A stretch of DNA of 64,000 nucleotides from Podarcis melisellensis (lineage: Eukaryota): NCBI GenBank assembly GCA_964234715.1, contig OZ174281.1; one strand, written 5' to 3'. How positions within the stretch are numbered: position 1 is the first letter of the stretch; every line of letters begins with the position of its first letter. Shown here one piece after another: positions 23,187 through 51,647 of the stretch. A model generated the notes under the pieces. It saw nothing but the letters and a program-made list of their open reading frames with translations, made no database searches and was not told the DNA's origin. The translations under genes were made by a program, and so were the position numbers.

Positions 23187-23699
23187 CTGTATTTTTCGCT
23201 CTATAGGACGCACTTTCCCCCCTCCAAAAATTAAGGGGAAATGTGTGTGCGTCCTATGGAGCGAATGCAGGCTCCTTGTCTTCAGCGATAGCAACGTGAA
23301 GCCTCCGAAGTGCAGAGGGAGCGCTCCCTCCACGCTCCGGAGGCTTCACATTGCTTTCGCTGAAGCCTGGAGAGCGAGAGGGGTTGGTGCACACCGACCC
23401 CTCTCGCTCTCCAGGCTTCAGGGATAGCCGCCTGAAGCCTTCAGAGCTCAGCGTGAGTTCCCGCTGTGCTCCGGAGGCTTCAGGTTCCTTTCGCTGAAGC
23501 CGGGAGAGCAAGACTCTCCTGGCTTCAGCAGAGAGGGAGAGCTGCGCAGCACCCCTTCAGCCAAGCGGGAGGAGAAATGGAAGGGGCTCCGTTTATCCTG
23601 CTGCTTAGCTGAAGGGGCACTGAGCAGAGAGGGGGAGAATTTTTTTTCTTGTTCTCCCCCTCTAAAACAAGGTGCGTCCTATGGTTGGGTGCGTCCTAT
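23187..23699. mobile_element. Tc1/mariner (pogo-like) non-autonomous element lacking its right TIR
   Basis: Left end ctgtatttttcgctctataggacgcac; the subterminal ggtgcgtcctat repeats end abruptly at 23699 without the expected ...gcgaaaaatacgg. Confidence 0.75.
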
Positions 23700-23930: not shown

Positions 23931-23977
23931 TACTAAATGAAACAATTTTCTCTCTCCCTCTTTTCACCTTTTCTTAG

Positions 23978-24097
23978 GGGCATATGTGCTACAGGTCAAA
24001 GCAACCGATGCTGATGACCCGACCTATGGAAACAGTGCCAGAGTGGTTTACAGCATCCTTCAGGGACAGCCATATTTCTCCATTGATCCCAAGACAG
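23978..24097 (+). CDS. CDH12: Cadherin-12 internal coding exon (120 bp, phase 1-1), EC2 domain
   Basis: Polypyrimidine tract then ttcttag|GG acceptor; ACAG|gtaatg donor. Translates (G)[39 protein letters not shown](G), matching my recollection of CDH12 (AYVLQVKAT...SIDPKTG); Ca-binding DADD motif present. Confidence 0.95.
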
Positions 24098-25294
24098 GTA
24101 ATGAACGTATTTGCCAGGGAAAATTGTACTGTTTCCCACTTTCAAATATCAAACTGATTAGATGCCCACCTGGACAGTCTTTATCCGATGACAGTGGAAG
24201 AAAAGGTGACAGTATTATTGTTTGTGGAAAAGCATCAGCTGTTTCCCATTAGCACAAGGTAAGTAGCATTGCCTTTTCAGAATTCAACAAATATAAGGAT
24301 TGCTCTGCTGAATCAAAATAAAGGTCTATCAAAGAAATGAACAGGCAGTGTTCCATATGGGAAATTTTGTAAAACAGCTTCCAGTGATTATGGTAAGGGA
24401 TGGATGGATCAGCCGCTTCACAGTCCATGCCAGTTTCCCATGTGTTGATTCATAAGGCTGTTTGCTGTTTTTTGGCATTATCCTGAGCGAATAACACAAA
24501 AAAGAAAACACACATATAAATGCATATTCAAAAATACATTTCTGGATGTATTTTCTTACAGAAATATACATGTCTAAAGATGTTTATTGTTTATGTCTTT
24601 GGTTACTTTTCTGTGCTAAGAACTGCATTGAAAAATTCAGCACGTGAGATCTGGAAGATGACTGCATTCTGAACCATTCATTAGTCCAAGCATTGCGGAC
24701 TGGGTCCCTTTCCATTAGAATTTACAAATAAACAATTCTTCCAATGCTGCCCACAAAGGTTCAAAAAAAATATGGGTGCAGTCACCATGTTTGAAATTGC
24801 CACATCTGTGCTACCTCACAAAAATAACTTCACAGGTAGAATGGAGCCCATACAATTCTGATTTCCAGCCACTACTAAGTTATTGTACCAATTCAGCCTA
24901 TCGTTTACAACACTTAACATACTGCAGAAGGTTGCTTTATACCAGATAACAGCTGACAGCTATTTGTTATAGATGTCAGTGACTCCAGTTGGTAATCCTA
25001 AGCAACTTCATTGCAAGTTAGGTGGGAGAACTCCTGTGTGCTGCTTCTTCCCTGTGAATGCCTTCCCCACACCCCAGATACAGTGACTGCTACATAATAA
25101 ACACAATTCCCATGCCCCCTGATTGAAACGTAACAGCTGTTTTCAGAACTGGTGCACATCTTGCTGAATTGTATCATTTCCAGCCGATGGGGGCTGGAAT
25201 CACAAGTTTAAATGTTTCCCTGAATAAAAGGGCCATTGACATCGAAAACTAGAATGTCAGGGAAGAGGGTAAGCACACTGACATGCTAGGTTTC

Positions 25295-25731
25295 TGTAGT
25301 GGTTATATGGGGTTGCTCGTGCATAAGTTGCCGCCACTCCTGGCTAGGTGGCCTGGTTAAACCTTTTCCTGGCTGGACAGCCCTTCACTTCGTGGCTGTT
25401 TCAGTCGCTAGCAGAATCCGTCAGTGGGCGTTTCTTGAACTTCTTCCAGCACTGAAGTTCTTTGACGCCAAGTCTACGCCTACTTTCCCTGCGCGGAAGT
25501 CTTCTGCGCAGGGTGGGTGTGGGTAGCGGAGGACCCGTGCTCTCCCCGCTGGTCTCCGGCGAAGAGTCCTTGAGCCCCCTCGCCAATTCCCCCATCTGCC
25601 CCCCTTTATCCCTGGTGTTATGCTGATTTCCTTCCCCAGCCGATGAGTTCCCTCTCTCCCTGCTGGGCCCATCTCCGGCATCACTTGGGAGCCTTGCCTC
25701 CACCTCTGGCTCCAATGTCCATTCCCTGGCA
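25295..25731 (-). mobile_element. Solo LTR (437 bp), Gypsy-like/unclassified LTR retrotransposon
   Basis: TG...CA termini; perfect 5-bp TSD gtttc at 25290-25294 and 25732-25736; about 90% identical (hand count over the ORF part) to the inverted copy at 26148-26582. Strand is assigned from the internal ORF. Confidence 0.88.
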
Positions 25732-26147
25732 GTTTCTTTGTACAGGTTTGCTGTGACAACCCTGTCAGATTAATGGAGTATAAATATTATTATTCTTATA
25801 CAATAGGATGTTCCTATTTCCTCGGACAAATATTGGAGGGTATGCAGTTATGTAGCTGACTTCTTTAAGATTAAGCACAGTGTAGGGTTTTAATATAATG
25901 CTAAACTGTGGTCAATCAAAAGCACAAGCAAAGGCTTCTGAGTTCATCTTTGTGGCAGAACTGGAATGGGAGATGGAAAGGAGAATGCATGAACATCAGG
26001 CTCATTCCTATCATGATAAAGTGTAGTTTACTGTGCTATCCAAACATAGACAAAAGTTTTAATATAATATGAAAGCTCAGTGATCCCCCCCCCCAAATCT
26101 GGTTTAATCTTACCCTGAGCCAAATTTCCAGTAGGCTATATTCTGCA

Positions 26148-26582
26148 TGTCAGGGAACTGCCATCGGAGCCAGAGGCGGAGGCAAGGCTCCAAAGCGATG
26201 CTGGAGAAGGCCCTAGCAGGGAGAGAGGCAGCTCATCGGCTGGGGAAGGAAATCAGTGTAACACCAGGGATAAAGGGGGGCAGATGGGGGAAGCGGTGAG
26301 GGGGCTCCAGGACTCCTCACCAGAGACCAGCGGGGAGAGCACGGGTCCTCCGCTGCCCACACCCACCCTGCGCAGAAGACTTCCGCGCAGGGAGAGTAGG
26401 CGGAGACTTGGCGTCAAAGAACTTCTTTGCTGGAAGAGGTTCAAGAAACGCTCACTGACGGATTTTGCTAGTGACTGAAACGGCCACGAAGTGAAGGGCT
26501 GTCCAGACAGAAAAGGTTTAACCAGGCAACCTAGCCAGGAGTGGCGGCAACTTACGCACGAGCAACCCCTATAACCATTACA
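26148..26582 (+). mobile_element. Solo LTR (435 bp), same family as 25295-25731
   Basis: TGTCAGGG...CCATTACA; perfect 5-bp TSD ctgca at 26143-26147 and 26583-26587. Confidence 0.9.
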
Positions 26583-28220
26583 CTGCACATGAGTTTTAGC
26601 TAGGATCTTCTGAGCATGTGTGCAGTCCTGCTTGGATGCTACAGGAAAAGTTTATTAATCTGGAATAAACCAGGCTTTTAATGAACATTGGTGTTCAGTG
26701 GGAAACCTGCCTTTCCCCAGCTGCTTGCTTTTGGCATTTGTCTGGCCTGGAGGATGGGAGACAAGCAATAATGTCAGGCTGTTGTTCAGAGTCCACTAGA
26801 TGTGCTGGTAGAAGGACCCAGAAATGCTCCTGGGACAGGATGACAGTTAATTGCATATCTTGCCCTGTGTTCCGAAATGTCACTCCCGCTTCTGTATTTA
26901 ATAATTCAATGACTTTACCAAAATGCTCCACACTAAATTCTGCCAATTGTGTGCCTTGAATGCAACGTAAGAAAGAGCTTGCCTGCCTGCCCCCTTTCTG
27001 CAAATGGAATTTCTTTTCCCTGCAAACCTCTCCTTGAATGTCAGATGGAGTGTTAAAGACCCTGGCTTCCTGGCTAATCAATGACTGGAGGTGGAAACAG
27101 CATAACGCTGTCAGTGCAGGTACTGTAGAGGTCATGTCCTCTGTCAAATATACCCGGTTTTAACAAAAGATGATATCGCAAGTGTGAATCAGAGAGTTTA
27201 CTTTTTAAATTAGGATGAGGATGTGTGTGTTTCCCCCCCTTCCTCGGGCTCTAGGGGATAAAAACCGCTTCCTTTAATGTTCTTCTTTTAATTAGATCTC
27301 GCTGACAATACAGAGGTGTTAAAATCCAGGCTATACGTGTGTTATATAAAGTTTCTGGATGAGATGAATGATGACAACAAAGATTTCCCCAGGATCCCCT
27401 GCTCCGCTTCTTTCTGCTTTTGTTCTCAGTGCCACCTTCATTAATTATTTTCACTCAGAAGCTGGGGATTTTCACACTGGGGGGGGGGGAAATGCCATGG
27501 TCATTGGAGATGGGTGGTCTCAAAGCATGGGAGCTTGTTCAATCCACTTCTCCTTAAACCACAATAGCCCTATCGGAAAGCCATTATCCTTCTGGGGGTC
27601 TAGGCAGCTTTACCAGTGATTTGTCTTTCTCCACTGCTCCCCATTGGGACTGATCACTTTCTTTCCTGTTCTTTATATAAGCTTCTCCTCTGCCTCAAGC
27701 TCACAGACAGTGGTAAATTAACTGGTTGAGCCCAGAGCTGCTAAGGAACTTGAGCAGGTTCCTGCTATGGAAGGAGAGGTTTTTATTGGCCATAAGCCTG
27801 CAGAACCCTAGCTGGAATCCAAAACCTCATGGGTGGCTTTCCTCTGTATTCCCAATACAAGTCATGTACTTCTCCGTTCTTCTGTGCTTGCCCAAGAATC
27901 AAGGGGGACAGCAGGTGGGAGGCCACAGAAAGGAGAAATACTCACCCTTTCTCTAGAGAGTTGGTCCTTTAAAACATTCACACTTCTGTAGTATTGGGGT
28001 GCAGCTTCAGATTCCACCACCCGCATTTGAAGAATCATGAATTTATACATTTTATACATTGATAGTTCCACGAAGCTGGCCATGTGCATATAATGGAAAC
28101 AGGGATCCCTAGATGATAACATTTGCAAATGTGTATTGCATTGTGATTCCTGACCTCTAAAAAGCCTGATAGAGGCTGTCAGATCACATACAATAATGCC
28201 ACTCATGCCTTCATAGTGAT

Positions 28221-31153: not shown

Positions 31154-31417
31154 TACCCTCCCTCAAAAAGTACCTCTGATTATTGCCAAACAAACAAACA
31201 ACACCCAATAGAGTGTCCCCCCCAATTTAATTAGTTTTTTTAAAGCTCCTATTTCATAGTCTACTAGCATAAGAGTGGTATGCATCCAATTAATGTTCAT
31301 TTTCTGTGGACACTGTTCAGTGCCAAATGCTATGAATTTGATGCCGTGAGTACAGTGTTTTGCCTCATAAATGTTCTGCTACCTCACAGAGAAACTTCAT
31401 TTTGTTTCTTTTAAAAG

Positions 31418-31585
31418 GTGTCATACGAACAGCCTTGCCAAACATGGACAGAGAAGTCAAAGAGCAATACCAGGTTCTCATTCAGGCCAAGGACATGGGA
31501 GGCCAGCTTGGAGGATTGGCTGGAACTACTACGGTGAACATCACTCTCACTGATGTAAATGACAATCCGCCCAGATTTCCCAAGA
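31418..31585 (+). CDS. CDH12: Cadherin-12 internal coding exon (168 bp, phase 1-1), end of EC2
   Basis: ttttaaaag|GT acceptor; AAGA|gtaagt donor. Translates (G)[55 protein letters not shown](S), with DRE and DxNDN cadherin motifs; joins in frame with both flanking exons. Confidence 0.95.
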
Positions 31586-32013
31586 GTAAGTTCTATCACC
31601 TATGAGTAACATTCTAGATGAAAATGGCTGTGTTTACTCTGATGAATGTTCGAAGTGACTTGTGCTATGGGAGCATGGTTCCACATGGGTCAATTTATAG
31701 CATGACATTAAGACAAACTTTTGCCAGTGGAGAGCTGGTCTAGATATTGTATCCCCTCCTTGCCCCTGCCCCAGTTGCAACATTGTATGAGTCAAGGCCA
31801 TCACTTGACCATTGACCACACTGGCCAGAGCTGATGGGAGCCCAAAACATTCAGAAGATACCAGGTTCTGCAAGTATTGTTAAATGAGACAGCTGGGGAA
31901 GGAAGCTAATCTCATATCTGTGGTGAGTGAAACTGTTTCTAGATTGGCTCTGAAATGCTTACTGGAGATTCCTTAAATCTGCTTATAATTATGCACATAC
32001 AGGGTGATTCATA

Positions 32014-49817: not shown

Positions 49818-49900
49818 ATGTTAATGGTAGCAGCATGCATTACAACTATCTGTAATTTGCCAAGATTTCAGCTGAATAACTGATTATCAATTTTCCACAG

Positions 49901-50088
49901 GTATCTTCCATCTGAAAGTACCTGAAACATCTCTCATTGGTTCAGCCATTGGAAGAATCAGAGCGGTTGATCCTGACTCTGGGAAAAATGCAGAAATTGA
50001 ATATACTATTGTTCCGGGAGATGGAGGGAACTTGTTTGACATCGGCACAGATGAGAACACCCAAGAAGGGGTCATCAAGCTGAAAAAG
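49901..50088 (+). CDS. CDH12: Cadherin-12 internal coding exon (188 bp, phase 1-0), first part of EC3
   Basis: ttttccacag|GT acceptor; AAG|gtatta donor. Translates (S)[62 protein letters not shown]. The 120/168/188 exon-size series is typical of type II cadherins. The next exon (PLDFE...) was not seen in the window. Confidence 0.95.
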
Positions 50089-50090
<2 letters not shown>

Positions 50091-50138
<48 letters not shown>

Positions 50139-50240
50139 CTGCCCTATACCCGGAGGTCTCAGGGTGGTTCACAGTACAAAATCAAAATATAAAACCACAA
50201 AATACAAAATCAAAATACAAACAAAAACCCCTCTCCCCTT
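50091..50240 (-). mobile_element. L2-type LINE 3' tail with (TTA)15 microsatellite abutting the splice donor
   Basis: (TTA)15 at 50092-50136, then tactgccctatacccggaggtctcagggtggttcac, homologous to 29787-29998. Confidence 0.8.
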
Positions 50241-51647
50241 GGAAGTACATAGTGGTTTACCTAAAAATTACTTCACACAGTTAAATAAGTTGAAATCAGA
50301 CTTACATCTTCCAAATGTTTAGGTCAAGAACTGCCTCCCTTCATAGCACCTAACCCAAAAGAGAAACAAACACCATCAACAGAAGAGGGCAGCAACATGA
50401 TGTCCACGGTCAACCTTTCTGTCAAGTGTATTAGGCAAGAGAGATCAGTTTAGATTTCTTCTTAACCAGAAGTCCATTTTTATCCTCAGCTGGTGATGAA
50501 TAAATCGGTCATTTTTTGTTACTCTCCCTTTGCCATTTCCCCAATATACAGGTCTCTAAAATTCTGCATTAGCTTGTGGGTTGTTGTTTTTTAAGTCCTT
50601 GTGAAAATTTGTCAGCATTTTAGTGTGTAGTTCTCCTGATATACACATTATTTTTCTTTTTAAAAACCAATTTCCCCTAGCATAATGTATTCCAATGTTA
50701 TTTTCACTCAGATATGCATCTGAATGCAGGCTTTACGCTAATACGTGCATTTTATTTGCCTGAATAACTGCATTACAAAATTCAGCAAAGTGTAAGGTTT
50801 GAGGGATAACTGTGTTTTGAGTCGCACATTATGTTTGGAATTGTAAATTATGTGCATACACATTAAAATAAGTATGGAACTGGTTTCCTTCCCCCGCCCC
50901 CTCACATCCCCAACCTCGGCCCTGTTTTTATATTTACCTGGCACCAAGCTGTCAGTCCAGCCCTATTGGAATCTCCCAATGGATAAACTTGTAGCTATGT
51001 AATCCCGCTGAAGGGCAAAGAGTCCATTGTATCTCCCAGCCAGGAAGCTGCTCTCTCCTGTGGTTTTCAAAAGCAAGTACATTTTCAGCTCAAATCAATC
51101 ACTCTCTATAGTAACTAAGAGCTTGCGGCATTTCGTTTGACTATTGCAAGTGGGCCGTAAAGCTCTGAAGGAACAGAAATGGTGTTTTAAAAACAAAAGC
51201 AAAATTAGTAGCCATAAAAGTTTTAGTACTTCACATGATTATGTGCCCAGTCTTTTGAGTGAGAGTATGGACCAAAAATGGACAAGTTACCAGTCCTACA
51301 CCAGTCACACAAATAGAAATTGCATGAATAACTTGTAGGAGGCAAGATGTAAACACATACCCTCCAGTGTTTCTCAGATGAAAATAGGGACATCATTTTC
51401 TGTATCGAGAAGCTTCTCCTGCATTTGATCTTGCTGCACATGTATATGTCGTATGCACATATACATCTGTCACCTTGAGCCAATTAAAACCTCTCAGCCT
51501 AGCCTACATCGCAGGATTGTTGCAAAGAAAAAGTGTGCAAGGGAAAGGATCGTGTACAAACCTTCCACCGGTAAATAGAATGAAATAAAATTTTAGCTGT
51601 AAGCTGCCTCGAGTCCCTGTCAGAGGAAAAAGTGAGTAATAATAATA

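What the first reader, a model, noticed from the sequence alone, without database searches (positions are those of the whole stretch)
25295..26582. LTR-encoded Arg-rich ORF kept intact in two independent solo LTRs, with a synonymous-only core
Seen: in both LTRs one frame is open from the first codon inside the TG terminus to a shared TGA about 330 nt in (26149-26478 on +; 25730-25401 on -). It reads ...EPE(A/V)EARL..DAG.GPSRERG.SSAGEGNQ.NTRDKGGQMGE..RGL.DSSPETSGESTGPPLPTPTLRRRLPRRESRRRLGVKEL.CWK.FKKR.LTD.ASD*. Neither copy has a stop or frameshift in the ORF, and the two 1-bp indels between the copies both fall after the stop. In the 38-codon core DSSP...VKEL all 6 differences are third-position synonymous (tct/tcc, tcg/tca, ccg/cca, cta/ctg, gaa/gag, cgt/cgg). 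Over the whole ORF my hand count is about 12 synonymous vs about 20 non-synonymous changes, so constraint looks confined to the core, and that window was chosen after the fact. Known: some retroviruses have ORFs running into or lying in the 3' LTR U3 (HIV nef, MMTV sag, foamy virus bel2), and Arg-rich motifs bind RNA or act as NLS (Rev, Tat, Rex). Inference: this lizard LTR family may encode an undescribed accessory protein (acidic/Ser-Pro linker plus Arg-rich motif) whose C-terminus lies in the LTR.
Basis: partly seen in the sequence, partly recalled or inferred. Interest (0 to 1): 0.72.

Follow-up and report, generated by a model that had tools for sequence, protein, structure and literature searches.

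The report
Integrase tail encoded inside lizard LTR
The reading frame in these two leftover retrotransposon ends is not a separate gene but the last 109 codons of the integrase-bearing Pol protein of a chromodomain Ty3/Gypsy jumping gene, which runs into its own terminal repeat as in plant centromeric retrotransposons, and whose conserved basic tip likely helps the integrase get into the nucleus or hold on to chromatin.

Summary
The reading as a separate retroviral-style accessory gene is not supported. The LTR belongs to a young, high-copy chromoviral Ty3/Gypsy family (gag-PR-RT-RH-IN-SH3-chromodomain; RT nearest Ty3). In longer copies the chromodomain frame crosses the polypurine tract into this LTR frame (in frame in 8 of 11 copies, unbroken in 3; 6 of 8 in a second subfamily), and Podarcis muralis UniRef Pol models end with the same tail. 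Between subfamilies the distal half has dN/dS about 0.17, like the chromodomain; private mutations in the copies look neutral, so intactness in solo LTRs reflects youth. An 11-nt stretch in the last codons pairs with the primer-binding site and changes with it (Tf1/sushi self-priming), which would put transcription start near the frame's end, so solo LTRs could not express it themselves. Pol running into the 3' LTR is published for plant CRM chromoviruses; my searches found no vertebrate description. The scan noted self-priming before on another genome, not this tail. The tail's function (NLS or chromatin tether) is inferred.

The parts
26148..26582 (+). Solo LTR A (435 bp, TG..CA) of a chromoviral Ty3/Gypsy family
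   Evidence: same LTR bounds the 5594-bp two-LTR element in L031
26143..26147 (+). Left 5-bp target-site duplication of LTR A (CTGCA)
26583..26587 (+). Right 5-bp target-site duplication of LTR A (CTGCA)
26149..26478 (+). Relic of the last 109 codons of Pol (post-chromodomain integrase tail) plus stop; headless in this solo LTR
   Evidence: in-frame continuity with the chromodomain in longer copies
26368..26451 (+). Conserved Arg/Lys-rich tip (codons 74-101), fits a bipartite NLS pattern (pattern recalled, matched by eye)
26454..26464 (+). 11-nt predicted self-primer (LTR nt 307-317), complementary to the PBS of full-length copies; predicted 5' end of R
25295..25731 (-). Solo LTR B (437 bp, TG..CA), second subfamily, separate insertion
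25290..25294 (+). Target-site duplication of LTR B (GTTTC)
25732..25736 (+). Target-site duplication of LTR B (GTTTC)
25401..25730 (-). Relic of the last 109 codons of Pol plus stop in LTR B
25415..25425 (-). 11-nt predicted self-primer in LTR B

Best explanation
The two window elements are solo LTRs of a chromodomain Ty3/Gypsy retrotransposon whose Pol frame runs through the polypurine tract into the 3' LTR, so their open frame is the headless C-terminal tail of integrase, a predicted disordered tail whose conserved basic tip likely serves as a nuclear import signal or chromatin tether. Shown: element class, frame continuity, purifying selection on the distal half between lineages, neutral-looking decay after insertion, and PBS-LTR complementarity with compensated changes. 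Inferred: the genomic RNA starts at LTR nt 307 and primes itself as Tf1 does; it ends in the 3' LTR beyond the stop at nt 329-331, so the tail is translated only from the 3' LTR of full-length RNA as part of Gag-Pol and would stay on mature integrase; reverse transcription copies U3 to both ends, and LTR-LTR recombination leaves solo LTRs that carry the frame but cannot express it from their own promoter. Which job the tip does (import, tethering, or both) is untested; I put nuclear import first (about 55%), chromatin or partner binding second (about 30%).
For: Full element L031: 5594 bp, LTRs 97.5% identical, TSD ATTGG, PPT; Pfam gag/Ty3 capsid, zf-CCHC, protease, RVT_1, RNase H, H2C2, rve, SH3_Tf2-1, Chromo in that order; RT nearest Ty3. 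Junction: of 30 loci, 11 are separate copies with a whole 3' LTR; 8 of 11 cross the junction in frame (3 with no stop from chromodomain to LTR stop), 3 are frameshifted, two of them in the PPT G-run. Second subfamily (about 65-70% amino-acid identity in the tail): 6 of 8 PPT-flanked LTRs are in one open frame with the chromodomain (two share a flank); open frames up to 1076 aa without a stop end in the tail. P0003 and UniRef P. muralis Pol models P0005, P0006 end in the same tail. Pairwise dN/dS between real copies of the two lineages: integrase 0.08-0.10, chromodomain 0.13-0.17, LTR codons 55-109 0.17-0.18 (bootstrap 0.07-0.35), codons 64-101 without the primer site 0.20-0.22; Arg and Leu kept through first-position changes. 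Among 70 copies, private variants are 82 non-synonymous or stop to 32 synonymous, variants in 5 or more copies 18 to 18 (p 0.025; without CpG sites p 0.044; other two frames p 0.27, 0.83). PBS: 9 of 14 5' junctions have an exact 11-nt complement at the same LTR position, and two bases change in both partners between subfamilies. AlphaFold2: SH3 and chromodomain confident, residues 370-474 below pLDDT 50.
Against: No protein or usable RNA evidence was obtained; translation through the junction is inferred from DNA. The N-terminal half of the LTR frame shows little constraint (dN/dS 0.6-0.7, intervals include 1; within-family test p 0.26). In codons 88-101, 10 of 14 codons are identical between lineages, so part of the conservation may be DNA-level (core promoter just upstream of the predicted start). 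No AATAAA or ATTAAA and no TATA box upstream of nt 307 was found in LTR A, so the R boundaries are not fixed. Copies were collected as best hits to intact queries, which favours intact ones. The low pLDDT of the tail may reflect its thin alignment (about 8 of 46 rows). 19 of the 30 junction loci are one amplified, frameshifted segment and were left out of the 8-of-11 count.
Confidence: 0.88

Rival explanations
1. A separate accessory protein encoded in U3, like HIV nef, MMTV sag or foamy virus bel2, made from a spliced or internally started RNA, or cut free from Pol by the protease as a working protein of its own.
For: Selection on the distal half; a Met lies at codon 46 in both window copies; protease cleavage inside the long acidic linker cannot be excluded from sequence.
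Against: The frame is continuous with the chromodomain with no shared stop; the element is Ty3/Gypsy, not a retrovirus; P0005 has no Met at that place; the predicted start of transcription lies after codon 102.
Confidence: 0.06
2. Pol merely reads on into the LTR until the first stop; the tail is a tolerated passenger and the conservation is DNA-level (promoter, self-primer, att site).
For: 10 of 14 codons identical just upstream of the predicted start; low dS in codons 1-54 (0.33-0.38 against 0.8-0.85 in integrase); the last codons overlap the self-primer; among 138 related chromodomain integrases 73 have tails of 30 aa or less.
Against: In codons 65-87, 10 synonymous against 6 non-synonymous codon changes, including first-position changes that keep Arg or Leu; dS about 1.0 with dN about 0.19 in codons 55-109; indels between lineages inside the frame keep it (109 vs 102 codons) while frame-breaking indels separate subfamilies only after the stop; the motif is kept in P. 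muralis Pol at about 50% overall identity.
Confidence: 0.1
3. The host uses one of the two solo LTRs (exonisation into the surrounding cadherin-repeat gene), which keeps the frame open at this locus.
For: The LTRs lie between cadherin-domain frames on the + strand; a P. muralis gene model, P0004, ends in this tail.
Against: Both copies are ordinary members of their subfamilies (95-97% to dozens of others) with non-synonymous changes in conserved positions; open frames are the norm at this age.
Confidence: 0.02

Closest known systems
Tf1/sushi group of chromoviruses (Tf1/Tf2, Tj1, Sushi-ichi, Amn elements; V-clade)
   Same: Ty3/Gypsy domain order with SH3 and chromodomain on integrase, TG..CA LTRs, and a PBS complementary to the element's own LTR instead of a tRNA (self-priming in this group: passages of PMC6317226 and PMC4600332).
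   Different: Here Pol goes on for about 200 aa past the chromodomain, 102-109 of them inside the LTR, and the self-primer overlaps the last codons. My paper searches found no such description for vertebrate members; older subscription papers such as Butler et al. 2001 were not readable (seen only as a reference).
Plant CRM-clade group A centromeric retrotransposons (CR motif), and beet Beetle7 and Bingo1-4, 7
   Same: [quoted passage not shown]
   Different: In CRM group A the CR motif stands in place of the chromodomain and the elements are centromeric; here a Pfam Chromo domain lies upstream of the PPT and the LTR motif is additional, solo LTRs are found on many chromosomes-scale contigs, and priming is not by tRNA. 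No sequence comparison with the CR motif was made; Pfam gave no family for the tail.
Ty1 integrase C-terminal module (Saccharomyces cerevisiae)
   Same: Long disordered integrase tail (abstract of PMC8487063) carrying a nuclear targeting signal and a short partner-binding segment (search listing and abstract starts of PMC2490736, PMC7459421, PMC10050235): the working model for the tail here.
   Different: Ty1 is a Ty1/Copia element whose integrase lies before RT, so its tail is not in the LTR; no sequence similarity was tested.
UniRef 'Gypsy retrotransposon integrase-like protein 1' of Podarcis muralis (A0A670HKZ8, A0A670K6E2 and cluster members)
   Same: Automatic Pol models of 1275-1280 aa with RT, RNase H, integrase, SH3, chromodomain that end in the same tail, 50-57% identical to the window peptide.
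   Different: Unreviewed gene models; they carry no note that the tail lies in the LTR, and such models may bridge frameshifts.
Retroviral U3-overlapping accessory genes (HIV nef, MMTV sag, foamy virus bel2; recalled)
   Same: Coding sequence inside U3 of the 3' LTR.
   Different: Those are separate genes from spliced or internal transcripts of retroviruses; this is the end of Pol in a Metaviridae-type element.

Membership tests
Ty3/Gypsy chromovirus | Domain order gag, PR, RT, RH, IN | tested here: met
   on L031
Ty3/Gypsy chromovirus | Chromodomain at the integrase C-terminus | tested here: met
   PF00385 above cut-off in L031 and L033; confident fold in the model
Ty3/Gypsy chromovirus | RT of Ty3/Gypsy type rather than retroviral | tested here: met
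   Ty3 RT E 1e-43, best retroviral 6e-13
Ty3/Gypsy chromovirus | TG..CA LTRs, PPT, short TSD | tested here: met
Tf1/sushi group | PBS complementary to own LTR (self-priming), not to tRNA | tested here: met
   9 of 14 junctions exact 11 nt, compensated between subfamilies; sequence level only
Tf1/sushi group | RT tree placement with Tf1, Sushi-ichi, Amn | not tested
   no named reference RTs were fetched
Tf1/sushi group | RNA 5' end at the complementary 11-mer | not testable with these tools
   only assembled contigs of uncertain RNA status
CRM clade group A | [quoted passage not shown] | tested here: met
CRM clade group A | CR motif in place of a chromodomain, downstream of the PPT | tested here: not met
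   a Pfam chromodomain lies about 95 codons upstream of the LTR
CRM clade group A | Centromeric concentration | tested here: inconclusive
   solo LTRs scattered over many positions of the large contigs; centromeres not mapped
Retroviral U3 accessory gene (nef/sag/bel2) | Separate frame, not fused to Pol | tested here: not met
   continuous with the chromodomain frame
Retroviral U3 accessory gene (nef/sag/bel2) | Host element is a retrovirus (retroviral RT, env) | tested here: not met
   RT nearest Ty3; no frame between integrase and LTR, which Pol fills
Classical bipartite NLS | Two basic residues, 10-12 spacer, 3 of 5 basic (recalled pattern) | tested here: met
   codons 84-85, spacer 86-95, codons 96-100; a pattern match only, common in basic sequence
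Classical bipartite NLS | Drives nuclear import | not testable with these tools
   needs a reporter assay

The most novel reading that the evidence does not exclude
Squamate Tf1/sushi chromoviruses have evolved, independently of plant centromeric retrotransposons, a second integrase targeting module written into U3, so that their integrase carries both a chromodomain and an LTR-encoded Arg-rich chromatin tether, and one 330-nt stretch serves at once as protein code, promoter and self-primer. A second, unrelated-looking family in the same genome has the same layout with a different tail ending in an RRSARL motif, and distant tails occur in P0010 and in a viper protein, so the design would be widespread and conserved in position rather than in sequence.
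Probability: 0.25. Interest if true: 0.6.

Novelty: new variant of a known kind. Interest (0 to 1): 0.3.

Why it matters
It explains why thousands of solo LTRs in this lizard genome carry a convincing open frame with a coding-type substitution pattern, a trap for gene annotation (one Podarcis gene model already ends in this tail). It shows in a vertebrate chromovirus the layout published for plant CRM elements, where the LTR-encoded integrase tip steers integration, and hands over a short, constrained motif that can be tested for nuclear import or chromatin binding. It is not a new accessory gene.

Tried and rejected
Pfam on the two LTR peptides: no family. ESM Atlas on the last 75 aa of P0003: no usable hit, which shows nothing. 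RNA: no holder on record as RNA; contigs of four runs guessed to be RNA cover parts of the junction region but cannot show strand, start or level, and none listed spans the whole stretch; not used as evidence. The distant tail of P0010 was not found in the own genome with that query. Paper searches for an acidic-patch or arginine-anchor role of a retrotransposon integrase returned nothing. Look-up of earlier scan findings by sequence: nothing. AATAAA, ATTAAA and a TATA box near the predicted start were sought in LTR A and not found. In the second family only a 7-nt PBS complement was found in the one copy examined: inconclusive. Tail lengths of 138 related integrases include many mis-fused gene models and no LTR positions, so they do not measure how common LTR-encoded tails are. 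The dN/dS script ended early, after two of six planned pairs. No complex prediction was run. No supplements were read; supplementary element tables of the chromovirus papers, or Repbase entries, may already record the overlap for vertebrate elements.

Full report
Observation. The window holds two inverted solo LTRs: A at 26148-26582 (+), TSD CTGCA, and B at 25295-25731 (-), TSD GAAAC, 91% identical. Each has a 109-codon frame from the second base of the LTR to a TGA.

The family is young and abundant. A DNA search of the own genome (1.57 Gb) gave 3711 first-look candidates, the best 40 at 96% or more; B gave 3114, the best 40 at 95% or more. Of 70 distinct copies collected, 60 have the frame open, which is what 1.7% private divergence predicts (86% stop-free in a substitution-only simulation). 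Open frames in two solo copies therefore say nothing about selection at this locus. The collection is biased towards intact copies because it consists of best hits to intact queries.

What the element is. Two of the first 30 loci had a polypurine tract before the LTR. L031 holds a 5594-bp element with LTRs 97.5% identical and a TSD. Pfam finds Ty3 capsid/gag, zinc knuckle, protease, RT, RNase H, H2C2, integrase core, Tf2-type SH3 and chromodomain in that order; this copy has frameshifts and stops. Its RT matches Ty3 RT at E 1e-43 and the best retroviral RT at 6e-13. It is a chromoviral Ty3/Gypsy retrotransposon. The host is a lizard near Podarcis by the names of the closest proteins; this is inferred.

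The LTR frame is the end of Pol. Of 30 loci fetched with the chromodomain-LTR junction, 19 are one amplified defective segment and are set aside. Of the other 11, 8 cross from the chromodomain through an acidic linker and the PPT into the LTR frame in frame (L038, L041, L043 without any stop; the others with stops at scattered places), and 3 are frameshifted, two in the PPT G-run. A younger subfamily, found through protein P0003, has a 412-bp LTR with a 102-codon version; 6 of its 8 PPT-flanked LTRs share one open frame with the chromodomain (26 of 30 loci matched the pattern used; two of the six share a flank). UniRef models of P. muralis Pol, P0005 and P0006, carry RT to chromodomain and end in the same tail at 50-57% identity. 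A more distant protein, P0010, keeps an acidic tail, a basic run and LLCWK, and a viper protein P0014 has an acidic then basic tail; their LTR positions are unknown.

Selection. Using real copies only: among 70 copies, variants private to one copy are 82 non-synonymous or stop to 32 synonymous, as for neutral change, while variants in five or more copies are 18 to 18 (Fisher p 0.025; 72:26 against 8:9 without CpG-context sites, p 0.044; variants in 2-4 copies were not counted; the other two frames give p 0.27 and 0.83). The signal is in codons 55-109 (p 0.035), not 1-54 (p 0.26). Between lineages (L038 against L114 and L107, in effect one comparison; the script stopped after these two pairs) dN/dS is 0.08-0.10 for integrase, 0.13-0.17 for the chromodomain, 0.21-0.28 for the linker, 0.6-0.7 for LTR codons 1-54 and 0.17-0.18 for codons 55-109 at dS about 1. 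First-position changes keep Arg and Leu in the Pro/Arg-rich stretch, which points to protein-level constraint; codons 88-101 are mostly identical, which may add DNA-level constraint.

Priming and transcription. The sequence after the 5' LTR is not a tRNA site by its look but the exact complement of LTR nt 307-317 in 9 of 14 junctions, with two bases changed in both partners between subfamilies; the five misses are mutated or incomplete copies. Folding one copy of each subfamily pairs the two sites. This is the signature of Tf1/sushi self-priming (passages of PMC6317226, and PMC4600332), where the paired stretch is the 5' end of the RNA. If so, U3 is almost wholly coding, transcription starts within the last eight codons, and a solo LTR cannot express the frame from its own promoter. 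The R boundaries are unproven: no AATAAA or upstream TATA box was found. An earlier scan note on another genome (e1-7879976) reports the same kind of self-priming signature; it was read after and is not independent support.

How it most likely works. Full-length RNA is translated into Gag-Pol; integrase carries SH3, chromodomain, about 165 residues of acidic, Ser/Pro-rich linker and a basic tip of about 40 residues. AlphaFold2 on P0003 folds SH3 and chromodomain with confidence and leaves the tail below pLDDT 50 (thin alignment there). The tip fits the recalled bipartite NLS pattern. By analogy with the disordered, NLS- and targeting-segment-bearing tail of Ty1 integrase (abstract of PMC8487063; listing) and with the LTR-encoded CR motif of plant CRM elements, I infer nuclear import first and chromatin or partner binding second. 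None of this function is tested.

Comparison with what is known. Pol extending into the 3' LTR is published for CRM group A and several beet chromoviruses (passages of PMC3059260, and PMC3605345). There the motif replaces the chromodomain; here it comes in addition, so this is not a CRM member, but it may work like one. It fails the tests for a nef/sag/bel2-type gene. Searches found no account of this layout in vertebrate chromoviruses, and 51 and 55 none of an acidic-patch anchor on a retrotransposon integrase; subscription papers, Repbase entries and supplements were not seen, and the sequences already stand in UniRef as automatic Pol models. A second family in this genome shows the same layout with a different tail (in frame in 6 of 18 copies shown), which suggests a wider pattern but is weaker evidence.

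Surroundings. The LTRs lie between cadherin-domain frames on the + strand, probably in an intron. RNA data were not informative.

Verdict. Real feature, real constraint, different explanation: the C-terminal tail of a chromovirus Pol encoded in U3, left behind in neutral solo LTRs. New variant of a known kind; interest 0.3.

Noticed in passing
G000 contig C19 (38.8 Mb, 2.5% of the assembly): Copies with internal sequence are piled up on this contig: 40 of 41 matches to the chromodomain-LTR junction (19 of the 30 fetched are one amplified segment) and 14 of the top 30 loci of the younger subfamily, against 4 of 80 matches in the solo-dominated lists. It looks like a non-recombining W chromosome acting as a retroelement refuge, as reported for the rattlesnake W (passages of PMC9447483); W identity is inferred, not tested.
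   Followed up: partly
L046-L064 (C19, about 21.9-35.1 Mb): One defective element end, in most copies with an LTR shortened internally, next to a variable hexamer-type repeat array, is present in at least 19 near-identical copies: a segmental amplification.
   Followed up: no
L095:233-6008 and L155-L174: A second chromovirus family (629-bp LTR) also opens its LTR with a 117-120-codon acidic/Pro-rich frame ending in an RRSARL motif; the chromodomain is in frame with it in 6 of 18 copies shown, unbroken in L156 and L166, most others 1 nt off. RRSARL recalls the HMGN nucleosome-binding core (recalled, not tested).
   Followed up: partly
window 23941-24249, 31342-31602, 49876-50319 (+): Cadherin-domain hits in three exon-sized frames (only the last passes the Pfam cut-off): both LTRs probably lie in an intron of a multi-exon cadherin-repeat gene on the + strand.
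   Followed up: partly
window 25295-26582: The two LTRs are inverted, 5' ends facing, 416 bp apart, 90% complementary over 372 nt; in an intron they could form a long double-stranded RNA stem.
   Followed up: no
P0004 (UniRef A0A670JKR6, Podarcis muralis): A phospholipid-transporting ATPase gene model ends with the last 45 residues of this LTR tail: probably a gene-prediction artefact, possibly exonisation.
   Followed up: no
L034:6890-7134 (-): A diverged, internally shortened LTR of the family (81% over 132 nt) sits inside a Copia-like element.
   Followed up: no
window 23280-23513: Short nested inverted and direct repeats of 43-78 nt, likely a small DNA-transposon remnant.
   Followed up: no
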